DNA from: Escherichia phage vB_EcoS-26175I | Reading direction: 5' to 3' (one strand) | Sequence record: NC_133255.1 | Length of the DNA stretch: 64,000 nucleotides | Part shown: positions 305 to 61,428 of the stretch, piece by piece | Layout: each line of letters opens with the position of its first letter | Position numbering within the stretch: position 1 is the stretch's first letter | Translations under genes and position numbers: made by a program | Notes under the pieces: model-generated | What the model was told of the DNA's origin: nothing | Seen by the model: only the letters and a program-made list of their open reading frames with translations | The model's database searches: none

Positions 305-1057
305 TTATCCAACTAGTGGTTCTAGCTCTAAGTCACAGAAGTGGTACACATCGGTACGAAGTGCATCAAGTCCATTGAAGGTATTCTCAAATTTATGAGA
401 AATGTATTTTTCAGGAATACCGCTTTCAGACGGATGATCTGTCTCGATGCGATACTTATTAGTAATACCAGATTCAACCTTAATAAGTATGGAATCCATA
501 TCTAGAGTATTGGTTTCCATGATTAGCTCTCCCTCATTGGGAAAACGCACATCGGTAACGATTGCGACGTCTGGGTCGTCTTTATCGATGGATTGCTCCA
601 GAATTATGAGCCAAATGCGTTCATGCACCAGCTGCCTTCCTAACTCAGTACCTACAAGCTGTAGCATTTTTCTTGGGGAGATAAATACGCTATACAGCGC
701 ATCATCAGCTTGCCCAATTAACTGCTGAGGATCAAGGTATTTTCCTTCAAAAATCGGCCAAACGTACGAGAAGTCCTCAAACTTATCGATACCATACTTA
801 AACCATACGTCTCTAGCTCGCTCCAATTGAGATTGTGTGACCGTAAACCATTGGTCAATCTCTTTTCCCCTGCGCTCTCCCAGAAACTCTGGAGTTACCC
901 CGAGGATTACGGATGCAAGTTCGTAAACGGGTTTAGCAAAACTGTAACGACGAGATAAACACGTTGGGAACGTGTCATTACACCAATCAATCATTAATTC
1001 TGCAACGGTATCTTTTCCCGCACCAGCCTCACCATGTAAACCGACTAATACTGACAT
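305..1057 (-). CDS. deoxynucleoside monophosphate kinase-like P-loop kinase
   Basis: 250 aa ORF; N-terminal P-loop GLHGEAGAGKDT. Confidence 0.5.
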   Translation of the reverse strand: MSVLVGLHGEAGAGKDTVAELMIDWCNDTFPTCLSRRYSFAKPVYELASVILGVTPEFLGERRGKEIDQWFTVTQSQLERARDVWFKYGIDKFEDFSYVWPIFEGKYLDPQQLIGQADDALYSVFISPRKMLQLVGTELGRQLVHERIWLIILEQSIDKDDPDVAIVTDVRFPNEGELIMETNTLDMDSILIKVESGITNKYRIETDHPSESGIPEKYISHKFENTFNGLDALRTDVYHFCDLELEPLVG

Positions 1058-1410
1058 TAATCTTTCCTATTTGTAATGGGTGGATAATAAACTAAGCAAC
1101 GTTTTTCTTGTAAATCTTGACGATAGAAGCAAACCATACCGGTCAGTCGTGAAATGTAAGAGTAAACTGCTTCCTCGCATTTTGCTTTTGCATTCCAATC
1201 TTTGTAAGGTACAACAACTACTACGCCATCTTCACCATTTGTAGCTAATTTCTTTTCGAATTTGAAATCAAAGCTACACGGCTGAAGTCCTTTAGGCCAA
1301 TCTATATGAGCTTGCTTTAACTCATGGGATGGCTCCGGTTTTATTTCTTCTGCACAGCCTGTGATTGTGATTGCGGCTGCGAGCAGTACTCCAAGTTTCC
1401 AGTTAAACAC
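1057..1410 (-). CDS. lipoprotein (possible outer-membrane spanin component)
   Basis: signal peptide with lipobox ITGC; overlaps upstream membrane/coiled-coil ORF. Confidence 0.45.
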   Translation of the reverse strand: MFNWKLGVLLAAAITITGCAEEIKPEPSHELKQAHIDWPKGLQPCSFDFKFEKKLATNGEDGVVVVVPYKDWNAKAKCEEAVYSYISRLTGMVCFYRQDLQEKRCLVYYPPITNRKD

Positions 1411-1790
1411 GCTAATCTTTCCTCGAACTCTTTATTCTGCTTTTTAGCAATTAATGTTACCAATCCAGGCTTTGCAGCGATAACATCTTGACGACTAAGA
1501 GCTTTATCTAACTGCTTAATCTTTTTGTCTAGATCTGCTTGCGAAATATTATTCATTGTGAAATACTGGTTCATTCGAGTCTCACGAAGTTCACTCTCAG
1601 TTTTCACTTTATTAAGAGAAGTCTCTAGAGTGGAGATCTTTTTAGTCGCAACTGCAAGATCACCTGCTAGAGTCTCAACCTTATTAACTAAGTGATAAGC
1701 ACCGAACCCGATGCCTATCGCTAGACCTGCTCCCAGGATATACCACTTACCTTGCCATATTCCTGAAAGAAGTTTTTGTATCAAATCCAT
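1341..1790 (-). CDS. N-terminal TM plus coiled-coil protein (possible inner-membrane spanin)
   Basis: hydrophobic segment WYILGAGLAIGIGFGAY followed by heptad-like charged region; 3' end overlaps lipoprotein ORF. Confidence 0.4.
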   Translation of the reverse strand: MDLIQKLLSGIWQGKWYILGAGLAIGIGFGAYHLVNKVETLAGDLAVATKKISTLETSLNKVKTESELRETRMNQYFTMNNISQADLDKKIKQLDKALSRQDVIAAKPGLVTLIAKKQNKEFEERLACLTGNLEYCSQPQSQSQAVQKK

Positions 1791-2445
1791 GTGCTGCTAA
1801 CCTGTCTTTATCTGATACGGTAATCATATCAGGCTCACCAGTTCCTAGTACACCGAAGATATACTGTTCGAGAACTTGGTGTAAACGGTATAAGTTACTT
1901 TCAATTTCCTGCCACGGAATACCTGACTGGTGGAAACGAATGTTTGTCTGAATTACGAAGTTACGAACATCATCGTTATCGTTCTTCTTAATACCTTTCA
2001 CATATGCAATTGGTACGCGCAGTTCAGATAAGATACGTTCTGCTTTAGGTTTTGCTTCAACCAACATATCTCGCATGGTTTCACGAACATCACCACGATT
2101 CTTGTCTAGTAAGTAAGAACGGGCATGTAATCCCATTTCTTCCATTTTATCAAATACAGCATCGATGTTGAACGTTTTGAAACTGAATGCCGGATGCCAG
2201 CAGGACAGCTCATGTAACCAGTAAACTTCACCTGCAATAAACAGCGGATTTACTGAGTATTCGAAATCACCACGGAAGGATAAGGAACCTTCACGAAACA
2301 CCTGACGATTATGAACAATATTCTTTTCTACATCGTCGGTTACTTTTACTAGCAGCTCTTCAGTTTTACGCTCCCAGACACGATCTGGATCAAATAAACT
2401 ATTCTGCAAATCGTATACATCATTGAACTTTGAAATGATTCTCAT
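1747..2445 (-). CDS. hypothetical protein
   Basis: 232 aa ORF; SD AAGGA upstream; promoter at 2477-2505. Confidence 0.4.
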   Translation of the reverse strand: MRIISKFNDVYDLQNSLFDPDRVWERKTEELLVKVTDDVEKNIVHNRQVFREGSLSFRGDFEYSVNPLFIAGEVYWLHELSCWHPAFSFKTFNIDAVFDKMEEMGLHARSYLLDKNRGDVRETMRDMLVEAKPKAERILSELRVPIAYVKGIKKNDNDDVRNFVIQTNIRFHQSGIPWQEIESNLYRLHQVLEQYIFGVLGTGEPDMITVSDKDRLAAHGFDTKTSFRNMAR

Positions 2446-2476
2446 AAATTATCCTTTTGCCTCAATCTATAAACAT

Positions 2477-2505
2477 ATTATACAATACTTGTGGCATCTG
2501 AGCAA
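2477..2505 (-). promoter_or_regulatory. sigma70-type early promoter (TTGCTC-17-TATAAT)
   Basis: plus-strand attata 2477-2482 and gagcaa 2500-2505. Confidence 0.55.
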
Positions 2506-2526
2506 CTGAAATTTTATTACAAAAAT

Positions 2527-2556
2527 AGCCCAGTCGCAAAATTGCAGGCTGGGCTT
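2527..2556 (-). terminator. hairpin terminator
   Basis: inverted repeat agcccag...ctgggct with T-rich tract on minus strand. Confidence 0.45.
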
Positions 2557-2590
2557 TGTCATTATTATTCTTGCTAGGAGGTGATTATCA

Positions 2591-2980
2591 TCACTCTTGT
2601 TTACTTAATTCTCTAGCACGACGTAGCGATCCAGCGGTTCTCCATAGTTTAATGTCGTCAACAACTTCTTTGTAGGGAGCAATAGTAAGACCTAGCGGCC
2701 CCGCTACCAACAGTCCAAAGAAACCAATTACACGCATGTAAAGCAAGCATTCTTTGGGAGTCATTGACTGGACAGCCTGTCTTTCCTCAGCACTGTCGAA
2801 CTCGTGTTCTTGATCGTCTAAACGTAGGTACTTAATAAACCATTCAGCAGAATATTCATCCAGATGACGAATAACTGCAATAGCATAGCCTAAACCAATA
2901 ATAAACCATGCTGCTACAATGAATAAAATAAAGCTCATGATATCTCCAGTTAAAGTTGAGGTCAGCGACCAACTCACCAC
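2591..2980 (-). CDS. small membrane protein
   Basis: two predicted TM segments; hairpin terminator downstream at 2527-2556. Confidence 0.4.
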   Translation of the reverse strand: MVSWSLTSTLTGDIMSFILFIVAAWFIIGLGYAIAVIRHLDEYSAEWFIKYLRLDDQEHEFDSAEERQAVQSMTPKECLLYMRVIGFFGLLVAGPLGLTIAPYKEVVDDIKLWRTAGSLRRARELSKQE

Positions 2981-3054
2981 TTACCGCACTAAGGGGCACG
3001 ACTCCCTTATCCGTAACAGTTGCAGGTGACGCAACTCGGTCCTACGCGAGTTCT

Positions 3055-3339
3055 TTACTTGCTCTGCATTTCAGCACGGAACTTTTTCATCTTACGAGTT
3101 TTACGGAAGAAGAAATAAGTAGCTACTGGCCCGAACAAGGTGTCCATAATAAGCATACCTGACATAATGAATTTGAACATCTTTTCATCGTCAAATTCTG
3201 CTAATTCTGGCGGACGATATTTGTTTATAACATAAAGAATAACATCTTTATTTTTAGAGATATACAGATCATCAATCAGACTGTAAATCGCGACAACTGC
3301 ACCAATAACAAACCACAAAGCAAATGGAGAGATAATCAT
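3055..3339 (-). CDS. small membrane protein
   Basis: 94 aa ORF with hydrophobic segments. Confidence 0.35.
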   Translation of the reverse strand: MIISPFALWFVIGAVVAIYSLIDDLYISKNKDVILYVINKYRPPELAEFDDEKMFKFIMSGMLIMDTLFGPVATYFFFRKTRKMKKFRAEMQSK

Positions 3340-16106: not shown

Positions 16107-16196
16107 TGGAGGAAGAAGTGGGAATCGAACCCACAAGGCTATGTTTCAAACCGACAGATTAGCAATCTGCTGCAATACCGTTATGCTATTCTTCCT
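16107..16196 (-). tRNA. tRNA-Ser (anticodon GCT), long variable arm
   Basis: 87-nt body, perfect acceptor ggaagaa/ttcttcc, T-arm gtggg-aatcgaa-cccac; loop ttGCTaa. Confidence 0.7.
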
Positions 16197-16705
16197 TAAT
16201 TATTTCGGGCATATTCCCCATGAAGTTTCTCTCTCAGTTGAATTAGAGCTTCATTTGCTGCTTCAGGAGTACTGTGCAGCCCTGCGGAGTATGACTTACC
16301 TTTAAACATTATTCTATCCTGCCACTGACCAGATGCTTTGTGGTAGGATACTCCCTTAAATCCGCTAGTATTCCTAGAAGATTTACTAGCATTATGAGTA
16401 TTAGTGGTACTATCCGCTGCTCTTAAATTTAAAGGATGTATGTTTAACTTATTGCAGTCTTTATGATCAATCATTTCCGGCCTATACCCATAATATAGTA
16501 TAAATACTATGATATGAGCTAAGTAATCTTGGTGATCAACGTTAACTCTGATATACCCAGAGCTTTTGTGCAAAGATCCCGCAGGTTTATTGGCAAACTT
16601 AGTATTAAATATCTTCTCCTCTCTGGAGTTTCCGGAGAGCGGATTCCACACCAGTACACCATCTTCTAAACGGAATCTATAAAGTATAGACTCATAGTCT
16701 AGCAT
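16196..16705 (-). CDS. free-standing HNH homing endonuclease with AP2-like DNA-binding region
   Basis: 169 aa; IDHKDCNKLNIHPLNLRAA (HNH) followed by SGFKGVSYHKASGQWQ. Confidence 0.55.
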   Translation of the reverse strand: MLDYESILYRFRLEDGVLVWNPLSGNSREEKIFNTKFANKPAGSLHKSSGYIRVNVDHQDYLAHIIVFILYYGYRPEMIDHKDCNKLNIHPLNLRAADSTTNTHNASKSSRNTSGFKGVSYHKASGQWQDRIMFKGKSYSAGLHSTPEAANEALIQLREKLHGEYARNN

Positions 16706-29904: not shown

Positions 29905-30431
29905 TAATAAGTCACCAGTTCTTGTACAAAAGATAAACTTTTGTCTGCATTATGCCCTACTGCATAGTCCATCCTAGTTGCTGTTGAATTAGTCATAGTA
30001 ATATGATGGTGAAGATGTACATCAGCAGATAATGGTGTGGCTGAATTAATAGTAGATACATACGCCATATCTAGATGATTATTGACGTACATTTCAAGAA
30101 GCAGAGTTGCTCCTCCTAATACTACAGTTACTTCTTCCTTGAGGAAATCAGGCAGACTGTATCCAATATTACTTATGCGTGTGGCTGATCCTACAGAGTT
30201 AGGTAGTGGTCTATTTGCATAAATAAATAGGTCAGAATCTCCTAGTATTCTTTTTTGCAGAGTCTCAGGGAAGGCTAACCAAGTCCCTGCTCCTACAATA
30301 ATATTATCAGGTGCTAGAGAATCCAAAGTAGCGTAGAAGATATCTAGTTCTTCTTTGAAAGAACCCCAAGGGAGTTTACCGTTGAGGCCGAACTCCCCAT
30401 TCGGCCCAGTTGCATAGATTGCTGCTATCAT
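29904..30431 (-). CDS. dihydrofolate reductase
   Basis: [23 protein letters not shown]-terminus typical of DHFR; 175 aa. Confidence 0.75.
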
Positions 30432-31576
30432 TAGAACATACCCTCAAATTCGTTGCCAAGATCTTTCAGAGTATCAGCAGAGGTTTCTGTGACTTGACCT
30501 ACGCGGTAGGCTGCACCAATCTGAATCTCTTGCGGAGCAGGTTGTAGAGAAGTAGTATCCAACCAGTTCATGATCCACGGAATCGGATTCTTAGTAATTA
30601 CAGGTAAGTGGCTTGGCCATTCTACACCAATGTGCATAAATGCGTTACGTCCTACAAAGTAAAGGTATTCTTCAAGCAGTTCTGCGTTCAAACCAATCAG
30701 ACTACGGCCTTTAAAGATAAAGTGACCCCATTCAATCTCAGTTTTCAGAGTTTTTAGGAGTTGTGCTGGTGCTTTAGCTAATGCTTCATCTACCAGATCT
30801 TTATCAAACTGCTGGAACATAATCTGGATGATAGCTTTAGACATTTGAGTATGTAGAGCTTCATCTTTAGCGATTAATTGCAGGTTCTTAGCAATACCTT
30901 GCAGAATATCGTTCTCTGCTAGAGCAAAGGTACATGCAAAGGATGCGTAGAACTGCATTGCTTCCAGACCGTAGATTGCAAAGTAAGCATCTAACAGCTT
31001 AGCCTGAGTTTCACGTTTAACTTCAGGGAACTCAGTTTCTGGATAAGTATTATCACCACGATGATCACGTACTGCAAGGAAATACTGACCTAACAGATAC
31101 AATTCATCAAACAGTTCAACAGAATCTGCGATACGTGCAAATGCTTCTTGGTTTTTAGTTACAGAATCAATAAATTCTGCTGGATCAGTCAGAACGTTAC
31201 GAATAATGTTACTATATGCACGGCTATGCAGATCTTCGAAGTAGCTCCACTGCTTGAGCATACCCTCCAATTCAGGACGGCTTACAAGCGGCATAATAGC
31301 TGCTTCAGGAGCACGGCTAATGAAAGAATCTGTTTGAGTCTGCCATGCTAAGTTCAGGAGAGTAATTTCCTGAATATCACGCGGGAGGTTTGGCCATTGT
31401 TTCTTATCGGCTTCCAGACTGATTTCAGTTTCAGTCCAGAATTGAGAGCGAGCTAATAACGCCAGCCTTTCTAGCTCTGGATGAGCTACTCGTACATAAT
31501 CTGCAATACCAAGAGAATCACCGAGAAATAGATCTTTATTGGTATGATCCCAGTTTAAGTTAAGTAAAGTTGTCAT
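30431..31576 (-). CDS. nrdB: ribonucleotide reductase class Ia beta subunit
   Basis: 381 aa; size and helical di-iron R2 pattern; adjacent to nrdA. Confidence 0.85.
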   Translation of the reverse strand: MTTLLNLNWDHTNKDLFLGDSLGIADYVRVAHPELERLALLARSQFWTETEISLEADKKQWPNLPRDIQEITLLNLAWQTQTDSFISRAPEAAIMPLVSRPELEGMLKQWSYFEDLHSRAYSNIIRNVLTDPAEFIDSVTKNQEAFARIADSVELFDELYLLGQYFLAVRDHRGDNTYPETEFPEVKRETQAKLLDAYFAIYGLEAMQFYASFACTFALAENDILQGIAKNLQLIAKDEALHTQMSKAIIQIMFQQFDKDLVDEALAKAPAQLLKTLKTEIEWGHFIFKGRSLIGLNAELLEEYLYFVGRNAFMHIGVEWPSHLPVITKNPIPWIMNWLDTTSLQPAPQEIQIGAAYRVGQVTETSADTLKDLGNEFEGMF

Positions 31577-31584
31577 TAGTTCTC

Positions 31585-32100
31585 CTATTTATCTGTGTTT
31601 CTAAGTAGTGTTGGGTCTTTGGTTATAGAGAGGATTAAAGAATCTCGATACTCTATCGCCTCTTCGAGAGTTGGAAGAGTTTTCACGTATTCTTTTCCGT
31701 TAATGGATTTTCTAACTTGAAATCCAGACCCTTTCTTCCGAATATTCTTAGTACCCAATATATTATTTTTACTGGTTTTTCTGTTTTGACTATTTAACTG
31801 CCAGTCTGCTTCTCTTAGATTAGTCCACTTATAGTTTAGTGAATCTCCATCTATATGATCAACCATAACTTTAGGTAAGTTTCCTGTCATGTACAGGAAA
31901 GCAATATTTTGTGCAGGATATTTCTTACCATTGATTTGTATTACTAAGTCTTTTCGGTTAGGATCTACTGAGTGGGGTTTTAAACAACCAGCAGGTAGTC
32001 CTCTTACTTTATTGTGTACTTCTTGGTTATTTAACCAAGTAAATGTTCCTTCATCTGGATTATACTCCAGAATCCTTTTTAATTCATCTTGTGTTATCAA
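31585..32100 (-). CDS. free-standing HNH homing endonuclease (between nrdA and nrdB)
   Basis: 171 aa; VDHIDGDSLNYKWTNLREA HNH motif plus AP2-like GFQVRKSINGKEY. Confidence 0.55.
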   Translation of the reverse strand: MITQDELKRILEYNPDEGTFTWLNNQEVHNKVRGLPAGCLKPHSVDPNRKDLVIQINGKKYPAQNIAFLYMTGNLPKVMVDHIDGDSLNYKWTNLREADWQLNSQNRKTSKNNILGTKNIRKKGSGFQVRKSINGKEYVKTLPTLEEAIEYRDSLILSITKDPTLLRNTDK

Positions 32101-32201
32101 AACTAATCTCCTTAACTAATGGAGATATTATAGCAAATCTGGTAGCAATTAGCAAGTAAAATTTCAAAGAAAAAGGAGACCCGAAGATCTCCTTGTTTTT
32201 A

Positions 32202-34592
32202 TTACAGGTTACAACCGCCTGATGCACAACCTGCTGCTTCTTCACCAGCTCCACCACCATTTTCAGTGTTGAAGTTAGCGTAGTACCAAGTTTTCCAACC
32301 GTACTTAACAGCAGTCATAAAGTCACGAACTACTACTGGGCCAGGAATTACCTCATTCTCAAACTTAGTATAGTCATAGTACATATTCGTACTGATAGAC
32401 TGGCTAAAGAATTTCTGCATAGTTGCTACCCATTTGATCCACTCGATACGATCTACATCATAAGCCAGTTTATAGCTCATTAATGTATCCCAATCGGTTG
32501 CACCTGGAGCAATTGCAATTACTTTATTCACTGCACTACCCTTGATAGATACAATCTTACGAGGTGGTTCAATAGAGTTAGTAACACCTAGCAGTACAGA
32601 GGAACTTTCACCCGGCATCTGAGCAGTCAGAACAGAGTTGCGCATACCATATTTCAGAATATCTGCACGCAGAGATTCCCAATCCATTTCTAGACCTACA
32701 GTTACCAGTTCATCAACAGTTTTCTTGTACGTGTCGATTACCAGAGTTCCTTGCGAAGGCTTAGTACGATTAAACCAGTCACATGCACCTTGTTCTTTAG
32801 CCAGACGTACAGAGGCTTTATGCAGGAAGTAGGACAGCTTTTCAGCTTCACGGTGAATCCAGTTACGAGCTTCAACACCTTCGTAAGCCAAACCTTCTGC
32901 TGCCATTGCGCCTGCTGCGTTCATCAGACCAATACCAACGTTACGACGTTTCTTAGCCGTGTACTCCATAGTTGGGAATGGGTAATCCTGAATCTCGATG
33001 ATTGTATCAACGAATTTCAGAAGAATGTAGCAAGTTTTCTCCCATTCAGCCAGAGATTCCATGCGACCTAGCACAACACCACCTAAGTTACACAGAGATA
33101 CTTCACCAATATCTTCTGGACGCATATCATCTAACTGATCTTGGGTCTTATACAGTTCCGTAATATGGTGGAATGGGCGAGTTGGCTGAGTAATTTCAAC
33201 ACAAAGGTTGGTCATACGAATCGGGTCAAGGAAGTTACCATGACGGTTAGATTCACCAATGTGATGAGCATACATACGCCCTGTTTCCATACGGATACGT
33301 AACCAAGTATCTAGGATTTCTTTTGCAGAGATTCTAGGAGCTGCTGGAATTGTTTTTCCTTCATGGTCGATCTTTGTAAGAGATGCCACACGTTTCTCCG
33401 CTGCCACGTAGATTTCTTCAAACTTAGCCTCATCTTCGCCATAAAACGCTTCATGAACTTCTGGTGCGTAGAAGTAGGACATTAGCGTAATATCTTCGTT
33501 TTTCAGGTAACGTTTTAACAGAAGGTTGTTAAAGCTCAGAGAGTAATCCATCTTATCGATTTTATTCTCGTCTGTAGCACGTTGTTGTTTAACCTGCATC
33601 AACTGAATGATTTCAGGATCGAAGTATGGATAAGACACAGTAGCAGAACCGCCACGGGTTTGCTGAGTGTTAGCTTTTACTGATCGGTCAATGTGTCGAT
33701 AATATGGCAGTTTTCCGGAATGCGGGAATGCCCCATTTCGCACCGGATCAGCAATTGATCGGCTTTCAAGATGATACCCGATTCCCGCTCTGGCTGCGAC
33801 CATTTTGAAGACGATGTGCTCGGCTGTGTCGATTGAATCGAGCGTGTCAGTGGAATCCACGAGGCAGCAACTAGCAAATCCACGGTCACTAGAGCGCAGG
33901 CCAACCAGTGGCGGCGTAGGAACGTTGATTTTGTGGAGTGACATTGCATTGTAGAGGTCGATTGCATCTAGAATTGTCCAGTTAGGTTGAGATAACATCG
34001 CCATTGCCATACCCATGTAGGCAAACTGCGGGGTTTCATAAATTTCACCAGTTGCAATATTACGACGAGAATACTTGTCGAAGAACTGTTTCAGTCCACC
34101 ACTAGTGAATAAACGATCGCGATCATGATCAATAACTTGGTTCAGAGCGTCAAACTGATCATCGCTAATCCATGCACTCATATTTTCCCAAGCGCCAACA
34201 CGAACCATATGATCGTGGAAGAAACGCAGAGAAGGTGGTTCGAAGGAATCATATAGGCGTTTACGCATCTGCGCAAGACGTAATTCCTTCGCTACAGTAT
34301 CATATGCTGGATTGTCTTTGATAAGACCTTCAGCAGCTTTAATTAACACATCTTGGAGTGTATCGGAGTCTACAACACCTTTGGGTAGATTTTTCAGGGC
34401 AGCCATAACTACGGCAGACCAACTTACGTCAGTATCTTTACATGCCCATGCAGCCCAATCATTGAGTTTTTCAGGAGCAAAGTCCTGAACAGTACCGTCA
34501 CGTTTAATTACTTTTTCTATGCGATGGCTCATTTGGCTTTCCTTTTTGTAGTTATCAGGATTTAAATAGTATTCTACTTTATTCTCAGTCAT
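32202..34592 (-). CDS. nrdA: ribonucleotide reductase class Ia alpha subunit
   Basis: 796 aa; ATP-cone N-terminus, C-terminal Cys pair ...GCASGGCNL. Confidence 0.9.
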   Translation of the reverse strand: MTENKVEYYLNPDNYKKESQMSHRIEKVIKRDGTVQDFAPEKLNDWAAWACKDTDVSWSAVVMAALKNLPKGVVDSDTLQDVLIKAAEGLIKDNPAYDTVAKELRLAQMRKRLYDSFEPPSLRFFHDHMVRVGAWENMSAWISDDQFDALNQVIDHDRDRLFTSGGLKQFFDKYSRRNIATGEIYETPQFAYMGMAMAMLSQPNWTILDAIDLYNAMSLHKINVPTPPLVGLRSSDRGFASCCLVDSTDTLDSIDTAEHIVFKMVAARAGIGYHLESRSIADPVRNGAFPHSGKLPYYRHIDRSVKANTQQTRGGSATVSYPYFDPEIIQLMQVKQQRATDENKIDKMDYSLSFNNLLLKRYLKNEDITLMSYFYAPEVHEAFYGEDEAKFEEIYVAAEKRVASLTKIDHEGKTIPAAPRISAKEILDTWLRIRMETGRMYAHHIGESNRHGNFLDPIRMTNLCVEITQPTRPFHHITELYKTQDQLDDMRPEDIGEVSLCNLGGVVLGRMESLAEWEKTCYILLKFVDTIIEIQDYPFPTMEYTAKKRRNVGIGLMNAAGAMAAEGLAYEGVEARNWIHREAEKLSYFLHKASVRLAKEQGACDWFNRTKPSQGTLVIDTYKKTVDELVTVGLEMDWESLRADILKYGMRNSVLTAQMPGESSSVLLGVTNSIEPPRKIVSIKGSAVNKVIAIAPGATDWDTLMSYKLAYDVDRIEWIKWVATMQKFFSQSISTNMYYDYTKFENEVIPGPVVVRDFMTAVKYGWKTWYYANFNTENGGGAGEEAAGCASGGCNL

Positions 34593-34654
34593 TTAGCAAG
34601 TACAATTTTTCTGATAGAAAAGGCCCGAGTATTTTCATACCCAGGCCTTCTATA

Positions 34655-34897
34655 TTACCAGTCTAGTTTTTCGGCTTGATTAATTACTTTTGCTTTCGCA
34701 TTCGCCCTCAGAAGAATATCTACTGATGTTGAAAGTTCATTATAATTAAAAGGCCGATTTGGATTAGAGGCTACAATTTTCCATGCTAGGGTAGTCTTAG
34801 GACTTTCTTCCCCTTCCTTACGTGTAATCATATTAGCAGCACTCAATGAAGTACGGTGGATCTTAGTTTTGCGGTGCAGATGTACGACGTTTCCCAT
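34655..34897 (-). CDS. hypothetical protein
   Basis: 80 aa ORF. Confidence 0.3.
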   Translation of the reverse strand: MGNVVHLHRKTKIHRTSLSAANMITRKEGEESPKTTLAWKIVASNPNRPFNYNELSTSVDILLRANAKAKVINQAEKLDW

Positions 34898-58125: not shown

Positions 58126-59103
58126 ATGAGAATACTATTTAGTGCTGATCATCATATCAAATTAGGACAAGATAAAGTTCCAAAGGAATGGCAAAAGCGT
58201 CGCTTCCTGATGCTAGGAGAACGGTTAAATGACATATTCCATAATCATAACTGTGATCTGCATATTGCTGGTGGTGATATTCTTGATGTTGCCGACCCAT
58301 CGTCGGAAGAAATAGAACTTCTTGAACAGTTCATGTCAAGACTTGACCATCCAGGCAAGATCTTCACTGGTAACCATGAAATGTTAACTAAAACTATTTC
58401 ATGTCTATATCATTATGCAGGAGTTATTAATAAAGTAACAAACGGAAATTGGGAAGTCATTACTAAACCATATCGTTCTCCTGAATTTGATATTATCCCT
58501 TATGATGAAATCCACAAACCAAAGTGGAAACCATCTGAATCAAAATTATGTTTCACGCATGTTCGTGGTGAAATCCCCCCACATGTAAAACCAGAGATTG
58601 ATCTAACTAGGTATAACTGTTATGACACTGTAGTTGCTGGCGATTTACATTCTTATACTAATAGTCAAACTGTTGGTTCTACTAGACTTCTTTATCCAGG
58701 ATCTCCATTAACTACATCGTTCCACAGAGAACGCACAAAAGGTACAAATGGTTGTTTTATCATTGATACCGACACATTAAAAGTAGAGTGGATTGAACTT
58801 GGTGACTTACCACAACTGATTCGTAAAACAATCGGAGTTGGTGAGGAAATGGAGCCTAGTGACTATGACCGTGTAATTTATGAAGTCACTGGTGACGTCG
58901 TTCAGTTAAAGTCTATTAAAGATTCCGATCTCTTAGATAAAAAGATTAACCATCGAGTTACTAAAGATGCTAAGCTAAATCTTGTTGATCTTGATATGTT
59001 AGGCGAGCTTGAGCTTTACTTCCGTGAAGTTGAAAAGCTGTCTCAAGGCGACATTGATAGAATCTTGGCTAGAGCTGCTAAATATGTCAAAGATTATAAT
59101 TAA
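58126..59103 (+). CDS. sbcD: SbcD/Mre11-like nuclease
   Basis: phosphoesterase motif MRILFSADHH...GGDILD...GNHE. Confidence 0.75.
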   Translation: MRILFSADHHIKLGQDKVPKEWQKRRFLMLGERLNDIFHNHNCDLHIAGGDILDVADPSSEEIELLEQFMSRLDHPGKIFTGNHEMLTKTISCLYHYAGVINKVTNGNWEVITKPYRSPEFDIIPYDEIHKPKWKPSESKLCFTHVRGEIPPHVKPEIDLTRYNCYDTVVAGDLHSYTNSQTVGSTRLLYPGSPLTTSFHRERTKGTNGCFIIDTDTLKVEWIELGDLPQLIRKTIGVGEEMEPSDYDRVIYEVTGDVVQLKSIKDSDLLDKKINHRVTKDAKLNLVDLDMLGELELYFREVEKLSQGDIDRILARAAKYVKDYN

Positions 59104-60922
59104 GACACTAAAATTCAGCAACGTTATGTCTTACGGTAAGGATATCGTAATTCATTTCGATAAGAATCCAGTTACTCAGTTAATCGGAGGAAACGGTCTA
59201 GGGAAGTCCACTATTGCTACTGTTATTGAGGAATTGTTTTATAACAAGAACTCACGTGGTATCAAGAAAGACGCCTTATTCTCTTGGGGTTCTCCGAAGA
59301 AAGAGTACGATATGCACGCTTACTTCTCGAAAGATGAAGATGAGTATGAGTTGCATAAAGTAGTTAAATCAACTGCTAAGGTTACACTGATTAAGAATGG
59401 AGAAGATATCAGTGGACACACAGCAACCCAAACATATAAGATGATTGAAGAGATTATGGGTGGTGACTTCCAAACATTCACTAAACTGATCTATCAATCT
59501 GTAGGTTCCAATCTAGACTTCCTCAAAGCAACTGATGCGACACGTAAAGCTTTTCTTGTTAATCTGTTTAATCAGGAACAGTATAAAGAGATGTCAGAAA
59601 CTATTAAGGCCGATCGTAAAGAAGTGGCAAGTACATTAAGTAACTTGCAAGGCCAGATGGCCGTAATTACGAAAATTCTTAATGGAAAGAATAACTTGGG
59701 AACCTTACAAGAACCAGTCGAAGTTCCAGAGTTTAATGAAGAACCGTTATCACAAGAACTTACTGAATCGAAAATTAAGGCGGCATTAGCCAAGTCACAA
59801 GAGGCTAATATTACTAAACTCCGTAATTTGGACAAAGCTGTACAAGTTGCCGAACAATCTTTCGAGCCTTTCAAAAATTTCCCTGCGCCCACTGACCAAT
59901 CTGAAGAGATCTCAAGTGTTACGCGTGACCTAACGATTGTTACCTCACGTGCGGGAGAAGTCAAGAAACGTTATCAGAAGTTCAAGCAAGAGGCTTCAAA
60001 TACTGAATGTCCTACTTGTGGTACTCACCTTGATACAACTGCTGCTCAAAAAGCAATGGATATGGCTAGAACAGAGTATGATCCTCTGTTTAAAGAGAAA
60101 CAATCTCTTGAAGATACACTAGAGCAGTTGAAGAAAGAACAAGTCGAGTACACTGCGTATACTAGAGCTAAAGATGCTTTAGATAAGGCAGTAGCAGCTA
60201 GAGACGAGTTCAAAAATTCAATGAGTGATGCTTCTTTCGAAGAACTCAATGTGCAAATCCTACAGGTGCAAATCCGACAATTAGAACAGGAAATCGCTGA
60301 TGGACGTTCTAAAGTTGCAATTGCCAAAGAGCATAATGCAAATGTCGAGTTAGCCAATGCAAAATATAAAGCGAAACTAGAACAGATTGAGAAAGCTGAG
60401 GCAGAAATGTCTGAGATAACATCCAAACTGGATGGAGTATCAGAAGCTGTTGCTGATCTTGATATTCTGATCGCTGCATTGAAAAATCTGGTAGGATATA
60501 AACTAGAGCATAGTGTGAAAGTATTTGAGGAATTGATTAATAAATATCTTTCTATTATGACTGGTGGTAAGTTCGCACTTGGATTTGAGCTTGATGAAAC
60601 TAAATTACAAGTAGTAATCTTCAATGATGGAAACCGTACCAGTATGGAGAACTGCTCTACTGGTCAGCAAAGTAGAATTAACCTAGCAACTCTGTTAGCA
60701 ATTCGAATGCTGTTAACATCTATTAGTAAAGTTAATATTAATCTTCTGTTCCTTGACGAAGTTATTAGCTTTATTGATACGAAAGGACTTGATACTCTCG
60801 TTGAATTATTAAATGAAGAGGATAGTCTGAATTCTATCATTGTTTCTCATGGGCACTCTCACCCGCTGGCCCATAAGATTACAGTTAAAAAAGATGCAGA
60901 AGGATTCTCTTATTTAGAATGA
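59084..60922 (+). CDS. sbcC: SbcC/Rad50-like ATPase
   Basis: Walker A GGNGLGKST, long coiled-coil middle, C-terminal signature/Walker B LLFLDEVISFID. Confidence 0.75.
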   Translation: MSKIIIKTLKFSNVMSYGKDIVIHFDKNPVTQLIGGNGLGKSTIATVIEELFYNKNSRGIKKDALFSWGSPKKEYDMHAYFSKDEDEYELHKVVKSTAKVTLIKNGEDISGHTATQTYKMIEEIMGGDFQTFTKLIYQSVGSNLDFLKATDATRKAFLVNLFNQEQYKEMSETIKADRKEVASTLSNLQGQMAVITKILNGKNNLGTLQEPVEVPEFNEEPLSQELTESKIKAALAKSQEANITKLRNLDKAVQVAEQSFEPFKNFPAPTDQSEEISSVTRDLTIVTSRAGEVKKRYQKFKQEASNTECPTCGTHLDTTAAQKAMDMARTEYDPLFKEKQSLEDTLEQLKKEQVEYTAYTRAKDALDKAVAARDEFKNSMSDASFEELNVQILQVQIRQLEQEIADGRSKVAIAKEHNANVELANAKYKAKLEQIEKAEAEMSEITSKLDGVSEAVADLDILIAALKNLVGYKLEHSVKVFEELINKYLSIMTGGKFALGFELDETKLQVVIFNDGNRTSMENCSTGQQSRINLATLLAIRMLLTSISKVNINLLFLDEVISFIDTKGLDTLVELLNEEDSLNSIIVSHGHSHPLAHKITVKKDAEGFSYLE

Positions 60923-61428
60923 AAAAGCAAGATATAACTGTAGAGTTCCTACAGGATAGGTATGAAATTAGAGACGGTACTCTATTTCATAGAAAATCAG
61001 TAGGATCAGCTAAGAAAGGATCTAGAGTCGGATCCCTGTCTAAAGATGGGTATTATAGAACAAGTATTAAAGGGACAGAATACAGAGTATACGATTTAAT
61101 TTACTTTATGGCCAACGGTACCTGGGCAGACTCAGTGGATCATAAAGATAGAAATAGGCAAAATGATATTCCAGATAACTTACGTAATGCTTCTAAGTCT
61201 CAGCAAGCTCAAAATAGATCTTCTAGGTCTAAGGCTACTAAGTATAAAGGTTTAGATTTCCCTAACGGTAGAGATGGTAAACCCAGGGCTAGAATTAAGA
61301 ACCCTAATACTGGTATTAGAGAAAACTTAGGATCTTTTAATACTCTAGAGGAGGCTGCCAAAGCATATGATATTAAAGCAAAAGAATACTTCGGAGATTT
61401 CGCAGTATTAAATTTCCCAGAGGAATAA
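60919..61428 (+). CDS. free-standing HNH homing endonuclease
   Basis: VDHKDRNRQNDIPDNLR HNH motif plus AP2-like GLDFPNGRDGKPRARI. Confidence 0.55.
   Translation: MKKQDITVEFLQDRYEIRDGTLFHRKSVGSAKKGSRVGSLSKDGYYRTSIKGTEYRVYDLIYFMANGTWADSVDHKDRNRQNDIPDNLRNASKSQQAQNRSSRSKATKYKGLDFPNGRDGKPRARIKNPNTGIRENLGSFNTLEEAAKAYDIKAKEYFGDFAVLNFPEE

What the first reader, a model, noticed from the sequence alone, without database searches (positions are those of the whole stretch)
31585..32100. HNH endonuclease wedged between nrdA and nrdB
The nrdA/nrdB junction is a classic target for intron- or free-standing homing endonucleases. Here a 171-aa HNH/AP2-like ORF occupies the 8-100 bp gaps between the two RNR subunit genes.
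Basis: partly seen in the sequence, partly recalled or inferred. Interest (0 to 1): 0.4.

Follow-up and report, generated by a model that had tools for sequence, protein, structure and literature searches.

The report
Mobile HNH nuclease gene between nrdA/nrdB

Summary
A 171-aa ORF (31585..32100, minus strand, TTG start behind an AAGGAG Shine-Dalgarno) lies 101 bp after nrdA and 8 bp before nrdB. The window is 100% identical to Escherichia phage vB_EcoS-26175, a T5-like Epseptimavirus. The ORF is the orthologue (97% nt, 99% aa) of the phage T5 gene annotated hegH / P-TflVIII, which one record labels 'nicking homing endonuclease F-TflVIII'.

The protein has an I-HmuI-like HNH domain (Asp-His, Asn, Asn) and an AP2-like C-terminal DNA-binding domain. 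Among about 440 T5-like genomes the junction is empty in 250. This gene occupies it in 73. Four homologous HNH lineages, 30-42% identical, occupy it in 109 more.

The gene travels with the first ~129 nt of nrdB, which carry ~33 almost entirely synonymous changes. Beyond that point the window matches a gene-less relative, Sepoy, exactly. That is a co-conversion footprint. dN/dS is 0.02-0.07, and no intron was found.

Most likely mechanism, inferred rather than shown: the enzyme nicks the gene-less nrdB 5' allele during co-infection, and repair copies the cassette in. The closest functional analogue is T4 MobE, which is not homologous. Already known; low interest.

The parts
32202..34592 (-). 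nrdA (class Ia RNR large subunit), longest ORF. It is intact, and its 3' end follows the phage lineage rather than the HNH gene.
   Evidence: ATP-cone, lgN and lgC domains. In some searches the last 550 nt are ~100% identical to HNH-less Sepoy.
32165..32194 (-). Intrinsic terminator after nrdA (AAGGAGATC-TTCG-GGTCTCCTT followed by a T-run), conserved in nearly all T5-like relatives.
   Evidence: scan. Annotated as a terminator in T5. The 77-nt block 32125-32201 is matched at 95-99% in HNH-less genomes.
32127..32155 (-). Sigma-70 early promoter (TTGCTA, 17 nt, TATAAT with a TG extension). It equals T5 'putative early promoter T5P28' and drives the HNH gene plus nrdB.
   Evidence: 10 of 12 matches. 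T5 annotation. Present in empty-site genomes directly upstream of nrdB.
32101..32124 (-). Cassette-specific leader CTCCATTAGTTAAGGAGATTAGTT. It holds the HNH Shine-Dalgarno (32108-32113). Together with 32125-32126 it forms the hairpin AUCUCC/GGAGAU, which occludes the Shine-Dalgarno. The upstream junction with the empty-site sequence lies after TATAATAT (32125).
   Evidence: junction alignment. (fold -8.2 kcal/mol, z -2.4, with analogous hairpins in the gmork and phiLLS types).
31585..32100 (-). HNH homing-endonuclease gene, 171 aa, orthologue of T5 hegH / P-TflVIII (F-TflVIII).
31780..31869 (-). HNH (His-Me finger) catalytic core, aa 78-107: VDH(82)IDG..N(94)LR..LN(103)SQN(106).
   Evidence: Pfam HNH_3 covers aa 62-98. 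phmmer alignment to I-HmuI 1u3e. Invariant columns. Model strands 79-82 and 95-98 and helix 100-111.
31606..31749 (-). AP2/ERF-like DNA-binding domain, aa ~118-165: three strands followed by one helix.
31582..31586 (-). Replacement Shine-Dalgarno (AGGAG) for nrdB. It is supplied by the cassette and overlaps the HNH stop codon TAG (31585-31587).
   Evidence: Empty sites instead use the GAAAGAGGAAAATCA leader.
31448..31576 (-). nrdB nt 1-129: the recoded 5' tract that co-travels with the HNH gene. It differs from the empty-site allele at ~33 positions, with only two amino-acid changes (A14K, Q42A). It is the inferred location of the target and immunity polymorphisms.
   Evidence: seven HNH+ genomes share it, and from nt ~130-185 onward the window equals Sepoy. 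(76 records at >=90% identity, then a gap to <=82%).
30431..31576 (-). nrdB (class Ia RNR small subunit), intact.

Best explanation
This is a free-standing homing-endonuclease cassette of about 680 bp (window ~31448..32124). It consists of a short leader with its own Shine-Dalgarno, a 171-aa HNH endonuclease gene, a replacement Shine-Dalgarno for nrdB, and a synonymously recoded first ~129 nt of nrdB.

Shown: the protein combines an I-HmuI-type HNH catalytic core (Asp81-His82, Asn94, Asn103, with no zinc-binding cysteines) with an AP2-like DNA-binding domain. It is transcribed from the conserved early promoter that otherwise serves nrdB directly.

Inferred mechanism: when this phage co-infects a cell with a T5-like relative whose nrdA/nrdB junction is empty, the enzyme binds and nicks that relative's DNA in the 5' part of nrdB. 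The best guess is within nt ~60-170, with the densest diagnostic differences at nt 105-129. The nick becomes a break at replication. Phage recombination then repairs it using the gene-carrying genome as template. This copies in the endonuclease gene and the neighbouring nrdB 5' segment. The carrier's own nrdB allele is protected by its synonymous differences.

The gene is the orthologue of T5 hegH (P-/F-TflVIII). It is one of at least five homologous HNH lineages that occupy this junction in different T5-like phages.
For: Identity and fold:
- HNH_3 is above its cut-off and PHROG_99 gives 9e-46.
- The AlphaFold model has pLDDT 81.5.
- Catalytic residues align with I-HmuI D74/H75/N87/N96.

Orthology: 97.4% nt and 99% aa identity to T5 AAX12027 at the same position.

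Sporadic distribution: 73 carriers, 250 empty junctions, and 43+34+29+3 with other HNH occupants. These sum to 432 of ~440 records.

Exact junctions:
- Empty site: TATAATAT|TCCTGAAATAGTGAGAAAGAGGAAAATCA-ATG.
- Occupied site: TATAATAT|CTCC..HNH..TAGGAGAACTA-ATG.

Co-conversion and horizontal transfer:
- nrdB nt 1-150 of the window is 98-100% identical to T5, which belongs to another genus, but only 68-82% identical to Sepoy.
- From nt ~250 onward, and in nrdA, the window is ~100% identical to Sepoy.
- All seven carriers examined share the tract.
- The 140-nt haplotype is found at >=90% identity in 76 records, against 73 carriers.

Functional constraint: dN/dS is 0.02-0.07 with dS up to 0.47.

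No intron.

Precedent (PMC2790892): T4 MobE, an HNH gene between nrdA and nrdB, nicks T2 nrdB at nt 122-126, and recombination points lie within the first 189 nt of nrdB.
Against: - No biochemical or genetic evidence of cleavage or homing was available. The 'nicking homing endonuclease F-TflVIII' label is only a GenBank product name, and no open paper describing it was found.
- The target position is inferred only from linked polymorphisms. nt 130-167 of nrdB are nearly invariant in all phages, so the distal edge of the tract cannot be placed more finely than nt 130-185 in the window.
- One carrier (vB_SLGBLB0002) has empty-type markers at nt 18-54. Not all of the tract is therefore obligatory.
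- Only 7 of the 73 carriers were inspected base by base.
- Strong purifying selection over a dS of 0.47 could also reflect a function useful to the phage.
- The Pfam AP2 model does not match this protein.
Confidence: 0.83

Rival explanations
1. The gene is a domesticated or beneficial nuclease rather than a purely selfish element. It could be kept because it damages competing T5-like genomes during co-infection (marker exclusion favouring the whole donor region). Alternatively it could contribute to the characteristic single-strand nicks of T5-type virion DNA, or modulate nrdB expression through its AP2-like domain.
For: dN/dS is 0.02-0.07 across copies with dS up to 0.47, which is more constraint than expected for a decaying parasite. 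nrdB translation now depends on a Shine-Dalgarno supplied by the cassette. T5-like phages carry specific nicks (PMC10644984). I-HmuI-type HNH enzymes are nickases (PMC3017599).
Against: Only 73 of ~440 relatives carry it, and 250 have nothing at the site. Genomic nicks are described as a general trait of T5-like phages. It is interchangeable with 30-42%-identical homologues at the same point. One relative, S132, has a frameshifted copy. Competitor exclusion is not really distinct from homing, because it is the same activity viewed from the phage's side.
Confidence: 0.1
2. The gene is a defunct relic: an HNH gene that once homed but no longer cleaves anything, and persists only through linkage to nrdB.
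For: Homing endonuclease genes commonly decay after fixation, for example T4 I-TevIII in PMC2790892. The S132 copy carries an A6-for-A5 frameshift after codon 8. The weak TTG start and an occluded Shine-Dalgarno suggest low expression.
Against: The ORF is intact in 6 of 7 copies examined. All catalytic residues (D81, H82, N94, N103) are invariant even among homologues 30-42% identical. dN/dS is 0.02-0.07. Nearly identical cassettes occur in two genera, with sharp recombination edges that indicate recent transfer. Weak start codons and hidden ribosome-binding sites are normal for active phage homing endonucleases.
Confidence: 0.06
3. The gene is an intron- or intein-associated endonuclease, with nrdA-nrdB formerly one unit split by a self-splicing element.
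For: RNR genes of phages often carry group I introns and inteins.
Against: No Rfam family matched at E<=1 in 30300-34800 on either strand. nrdA and nrdB are separate full-length genes in all relatives. Empty sites have a 107-nt spacer holding a terminator and a promoter. The HNH ORF has its own Shine-Dalgarno and start.
Confidence: 0.01

Closest known systems
Phage T5 hegH, 'putative H-N-H endonuclease P-TflVIII' (AAX12027 in AY587007; labelled 'nicking homing endonuclease F-TflVIII' in the DT571/2 record)
   Same: It is the same gene: 97.4% nt and 99% aa identity. It has the same position after promoter T5P28 and before nrdB, the same TTG start, and the same recoded nrdB 5' tract.
   Different: The window copy stops three codons earlier (TAG instead of CAG..TAA overlapping the nrdB ATG). 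It also sits in an Epseptimavirus backbone whose flanks match HNH-less Sepoy. No published biochemistry for the T5 protein was found in the open library.
Phage T4 MobE (free-standing HNH endonuclease between nrdA and nrdB; Wilson & Edgell 2009, PMC2790892)
   Same: Both occupy the same genomic niche and have the same logic. MobE makes a strand-specific nick at nt 122-126 of the MobE-less T2 nrdB, and recombination points lie in the first 189 nt. Here the linked tract is nrdB nt 1-129. After the one-codon offset between T4 and T5-like NrdB, the MobE nick site corresponds to nt ~119-123. That falls inside the densest cluster of carrier-specific differences (nt 105-129).
   Different: There is no detectable sequence similarity (BLASTP E 9.6). 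MobE is a 141-aa classical HNH without an AP2-like domain. MobE has no promoter of its own and is co-transcribed with nrdA, whereas this gene lies downstream of a terminator and a strong promoter. The target here is inferred, not mapped.
I-HmuI / I-BasI (Bacillus phage SPO1/Bastille intron-encoded nicking HNH endonucleases; PDB 1u3e)
   Different: Sequence identity is only 17-19% (phmmer E 0.3). I-HmuI is encoded inside a group I intron and ends in a helix-turn-helix domain. This protein is free-standing and ends in an AP2-like domain.
T5 F-TflI, F-TflII, F-TflIV (HNH endonucleases in the T5 tRNA region; Akulenko et al. 2004, PMID 15456135, cited in PMC10644984 and PMC2330249)
   Same: They come from the same phage group and the same general class of free-standing site-specific HNH endonucleases. 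These account for much of the gene-content variation among T5-like phages.
   Different: They are at different loci, in the tRNA cluster. They were not compared at sequence level here. The paper is not in the open library, so its details were not checked.
Allelic HNH occupants of the same junction in other T5-like phages (gmork, phiLLS/AKFV33-like, Spc35/fuchur and bombadil/EPS7/FFH1 types)
   Same: They are homologous proteins with the same domain order and 22 invariant residues, including the catalytic ones. Three of these types insert at the identical point after TATAATATCT, and each carries its own diverged nrdB 5' tract.
   Different: They are only 30-42% identical. The bombadil/EPS7 type sits upstream of the promoter, replaces the terminator, and is linked to a diverged nrdA 3' end instead.

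Membership tests
HNH_3 / I-HmuI-like His-Me finger endonucleases | Significant match to the family profile (Pfam PF13392) | tested here: met
   31.6 bits against a 24.8 gathering cut-off, E 1.3e-7, aa 62-98. PHROG_99 gives 9e-46. All 7 junction occupants match HNH_3.
HNH_3 / I-HmuI-like His-Me finger endonucleases | Catalytic Asp-His general base plus Asn and Asn (HNN variant, no Cys4 zinc site) | tested here: met
   D81, H82, N94 and N103 align with I-HmuI D74, H75, N87 and N96. They are invariant or nearly so in alignments A1 and A2. The roles of the I-HmuI residues come from my recollection of Shen et al. 2004.
HNH_3 / I-HmuI-like His-Me finger endonucleases | Beta-beta-alpha-metal fold resembling a solved member | tested here: met
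HNH_3 / I-HmuI-like His-Me finger endonucleases | Site-specific DNA nicking or cleavage activity | not testable with these tools
   Only a GenBank product label ('nicking homing endonuclease F-TflVIII'). No paper was found.
AP2/ERF-like DNA-binding domain | Match to Pfam AP2 (PF00847) | tested here: not met
   No AP2 hit at E<=1 for this protein or the six other occupants. A window paralogue scores 23.6 bits, below the 33.3 cut-off. The distant homologue P0008 carries a precomputed PF00847 hit.
AP2/ERF-like DNA-binding domain | Three-stranded antiparallel sheet packed on one helix, superposable on solved AP2 domains | tested here: met
Free-standing homing endonuclease genes | Not embedded in an intron or intein; own translation signals | tested here: met
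   No Rfam hit. AAGGAG Shine-Dalgarno plus TTG start. nrdA and nrdB are intact.
Free-standing homing endonuclease genes | Sporadic presence at an otherwise conserved site among close relatives | tested here: met
   73 carriers, 250 empty junctions and 109 with other occupants among ~440 records. RefSeq/GenBank duplicates inflate all classes alike.
Free-standing homing endonuclease genes | Co-conversion of flanking markers and phylogenetic incongruence with the backbone | tested here: met
   nrdB nt 1-129 travels with the gene across two genera. Both flanks beyond it match HNH-less Sepoy at ~100%. The haplotype count is 76 against 73 carriers.
Free-standing homing endonuclease genes | Cleaves the gene-less allele, spares its own allele, and is inherited above Mendelian expectation in crosses | not testable with these tools
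   Needs mixed infections and nick mapping.
T5 hegH (P-/F-TflVIII) orthologous group | High identity and the same genomic position as the T5 gene | tested here: met
   97.4% nt over 624 bases, 99% aa, and identical junctions.
T4 MobE family | Sequence homology to MobE | tested here: not met
   BLASTP E 9.6 with no meaningful alignment.
T4 MobE family | [quoted passage not shown] | tested here: inconclusive
   Carrier-specific differences cluster at nt 105-129, and the equivalent of the MobE site falls at nt ~119-123. No cleavage data exist.

The most novel reading that the evidence does not exclude
The nrdA/nrdB junction of T5-like phages may be a multi-allelic battleground. At least five homologous HNH-AP2 endonuclease lineages each travel with a privately recoded nrdB (or nrdA) end that resists them. 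The type-VIII enzyme may nick the same few nrdB codons (about 40-43, just 5' of the conserved Phe-Trp motif) that the unrelated T4 MobE nicks in T-even phages. That would be convergent targeting of one RNR sequence by independent selfish nucleases in two phage families. It would also shape where T5-like genomes can recombine.
Probability: 0.3. Interest if true: 0.45.

Novelty: already known. Interest (0 to 1): 0.2.

Why it matters
The practical value here is modest.

- It corrects the annotation of this phage. The deposited record calls the gene a 101-aa hypothetical protein, and some relatives attach the 'P-TflVIII' name to an antisense ORF.
- It gives exact cassette boundaries.
- It identifies near-isogenic carrier and empty pairs (this phage with Sepoy; T5 with chee24/saus111K). 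These would make clean homing experiments.

More broadly, the junction has six states across ~440 sequenced genomes, including empty. That makes it a convenient natural system for studying how competing homing endonucleases and their immunity alleles structure recombination among therapeutic T5-like phages. The principle itself is well established from T4.

Tried and rejected
- Pfam AP2 gave no hit on this protein or its six junction homologues, even at E<=1. The AP2 claim therefore rests on predicted structure only.
- NCBIfam gave no family.
- A PDB sequence search found only I-HmuI at E 0.3, so a structure prediction was needed.
- An Rfam search for a group I intron or other RNA found nothing, which rejects the intron-encoded option.
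- BLASTP to T4 MobE found no similarity, which rejects homology with MobE.
- The protein database search returned only 11 homologues, so the alignment used for folding was shallow (11 sequences).
- Literature searches for biochemical data on F-TflVIII, hegH or other T5 homing endonucleases found only annotation-level mentions and the 2004 Russian paper, which is not in the library.
- I considered that this enzyme makes the T5 genomic nicks. I rejected this because most T5-like genomes lack the gene.
- The Shine-Dalgarno-occluding hairpin is weak (-8.2 kcal/mol, z -2.4, and z -1.7 and -0.95 in the two other types). I record it as a possible regulator only.

Full report
**Observation.**
- An AAGGAG Shine-Dalgarno lies 7 nt upstream of the TTG.
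- The flanking genes are a full-length class Ia RNR large subunit at 32202..34592(-) and small subunit at 30431..31576(-), both with very strong Pfam matches.
- The gaps are 101 bp and 8 bp.
- The ORF matches Pfam HNH_3 above its curated cut-off (31.6 vs 24.8 bits) and PHROG_99 'HNH endonuclease' at 9e-46.

**Source and orthology.**
The 4.25-kb nrd region is 100% identical to four Escherichia phage vB_EcoS-26175 isolates, which are T5-like Demerecviridae of the genus Epseptimavirus.
- The HNH region is 97.4% identical in nucleotides to phage T5 itself. There it is annotated 'putative endonuclease', preceded by 'putative early promoter T5P28' and a rho-independent terminator.
- Other records call it hegH / 'putative H-N-H-endonuclease P-TflVIII'. 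The DT571/2 record calls it 'nicking homing endonuclease F-TflVIII'.
- Niu et al. 2012 (PMC3326045) already pointed out that P-TflVIII separates nrdA from nrdB in T5. They also noted that this parallels T4 mobE.
- The feature is therefore already known at annotation level.
- The deposited record for this particular phage annotates only a 101-aa hypothetical protein from an internal ATG.

**The protein.**
- A sequence search of the PDB finds only I-HmuI, weakly (E 0.3). The alignment nonetheless places D81, H82, N94 and N103 on I-HmuI D74, H75, N87 and N96.
- These residues are invariant across the seven homologous junction occupants and nearly so in a wider alignment.
- An AlphaFold model built from 11 sequences has mean pLDDT 81.5.
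- The Pfam AP2 model does not match. 'AP2-like' is therefore supported by predicted fold only.
- There are no zinc-binding cysteines. [quoted passage not shown]

**Comparative presence and absence.**
Among about 440 T5-like records that contain this junction, the states are as follows.

| Junction state | Records |
|---|---|
| This gene (type VIII) | 73 |
| Empty | 250 |
| bombadil/EPS7/FFH1 type | 43 |
| gmork type | 34 |
| Spc35/fuchur type | 29 |
| phiLLS type | 3 |
| Total | 432 |

- A systematic sample of 60 records gave the same proportions.
- All five occupant types, this gene included, are homologous HNH proteins of the same architecture, 30-42% identical.

**Anatomy of the insertion.**
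- Empty sites read: nrdA stop, terminator, TTGCTA-17-TATAAT, AT, then a 29-nt leader (TCCTGAAATAGTGAGAAAGAGGAAAATCA), then the nrdB ATG.
- In carriers everything after TATAATAT is replaced by CTCCATTAGTTAAGGAGATTAGTT, then TTG...HNH...TAG, then GAGAACTA, then ATG.
- The cassette therefore uses the resident early promoter.
- It brings its own Shine-Dalgarno.
- It supplies a new Shine-Dalgarno (AGGAG, overlapping its stop codon) for nrdB.
- The 77-nt terminator-promoter block is conserved in essentially all relatives.

**Co-conversion footprint.**
- In 50-nt windows, nrdB nt 1-150 of the window is 98-100% identical to T5 but only 68-82% identical to the empty-site Epseptimavirus Sepoy.
- From nt ~250 on, and over the last 550 nt of nrdA, the window is ~100% identical to Sepoy and only ~90% identical to T5.
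- Base by base, seven carriers from two genera share one haplotype over nt 1-129. It differs from empty alleles at ~33 positions, with only two amino-acid changes (A14K, Q42A).
- The window's crossover lies between nt 130 and 185.
- On the nrdA side, lineage-specific markers resume within the promoter spacer, so the tract is strongly asymmetric toward nrdB.
- The 140-nt haplotype occurs at >=90% identity in 76 records, after which identity drops to <=82%. This nearly coincides with the 73 carriers.
- One carrier (SLGBLB0002) has empty-type markers at nt 18-54 but keeps nt 57-129.
- This pattern is what gene conversion initiated in the 5' part of nrdB would leave.

**Functional state.**
- Six of the seven copies examined are intact, and pairwise dN/dS is 0.02-0.07 with dS up to 0.47.
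- The S132 copy has a one-base expansion of an A-run after codon 8. This could be decay or a homopolymer sequencing error.
- No Rfam family, and so no group I intron, is detected in 30300-34800.

**Mechanism.**
- Shown: identity, fold, catalytic residues, sporadic distribution, exact junctions, linked recoded nrdB tract, purifying selection.
- Inferred: the enzyme nicks the empty-type nrdB 5' region in a co-infecting relative, replication converts the nick into a break, and recombinational repair copies the cassette.
- Inferred: the carrier allele is immune through its synonymous changes.

**Closest functional precedent: T4 MobE.**
- MobE lies between nrdA and nrdB and nicks the non-coding strand of T2 nrdB at nt 122-126. 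Its recombination points fall in the first 189 nt (PMC2790892).
- T4 NrdB has one extra residue near its N-terminus, so the equivalent position in T5-like nrdB is nt ~119-123.
- That position lies inside the densest cluster of carrier-specific differences (nt 105-129, including TTAGCT vs CTGCAA at 121-126).
- MobE shows no sequence similarity to this protein (BLASTP E 9.6). If the coincidence is real, it is convergence. It remains untested.

**A minor regulatory lead.**
The leader can form a 6-bp hairpin (AUCUCC/GGAGAU, -8.2 kcal/mol, z -2.4) that buries the Shine-Dalgarno.
- The gmork and phiLLS types have analogous 8-bp hairpins, with weaker z-scores.
- Its 5' arm begins 2 nt after the -10 box. 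It would therefore probably be absent from promoter-proximal transcripts and present only in read-through from nrdA.
- This is inference from spacing, not evidence.

**Verdict.**
The feature is an orthologue of an already annotated T5 homing-endonuclease gene and a textbook example of a free-standing HNH homing endonuclease. It is of low interest in itself. The allelic series at this junction and the possible positional convergence with MobE are the only parts that go beyond what is documented.

Noticed in passing
window 16196..16705 (-): A second HNH_3 endonuclease paralogue of 169 aa, 32% identical to the nrdA/nrdB one by tblastn. It has a sub-threshold Pfam AP2 match (E 6e-5). It is probably another free-standing homing endonuclease.
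   Followed up: partly
window 60919..61428 (+): A third HNH_3 paralogue of 169 aa. Its start overlaps by 4 nt the end of a 637-aa SbcC/D13-like ORF (59009..60922), and it is followed immediately by a 160-aa ORF.
   Followed up: partly
window 31889..32119 (+): An antisense 76-aa ORF inside the HNH gene. In the DT571/2 record, this ORF rather than the real gene carries the name 'putative H-N-H-endonuclease P-TflVIII'. It has no Pfam match, so this is an annotation artefact that has propagated.
   Followed up: yes
window 34532..34599 (-): The longest nrdA ORF starts at 34592, but a TTGCTA-17-TAGAAT promoter-like site (34599..34571) overlaps that start. T5 nrdA is 60 nt shorter. The true start is therefore probably the ATG at 34532 (MSHRIEK...).
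   Followed up: no
L013 (Salmonella phage S132) 1095..1125: The S132 copy of the same HNH gene has A6 instead of A5 after codon 8, which shifts the frame. This is either a decaying copy or a homopolymer sequencing error.
   Followed up: partly
L010 (bombadil) 600..1205 and L004 (EPS7) 1771..3130: A different HNH type sits upstream of the promoter, replacing the nrdA terminator, and is linked to a diverged nrdA 3' end. In EPS7, nrdA is annotated only as a 1230-bp fragment, with an 809-bp unannotated stretch next to that HNH.
   Followed up: no
L012 (vB_SLGBLB0002), L011 (Kenya-K20), L014 (JNwz02); H37 (KKP_3831): The annotated nrdA lengths are 3348, 2445 and 2439 bp, against 2331-2391 bp elsewhere. 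KKP_3831 also has ~508 extra bp somewhere in the nrdA-frd stretch. These may be further mobile insertions (intein or another endonuclease gene) in the RNR region of relatives.
   Followed up: no
L003 (Spc35) 1490..1510 and L009 (fuchur) 1085..1100: In the Spc35/fuchur-type occupant the ATG follows the -10 box by only 6 nt (TATAATATCTATATG) with no Shine-Dalgarno. If the promoter is used, this suggests a leaderless mRNA.
   Followed up: no
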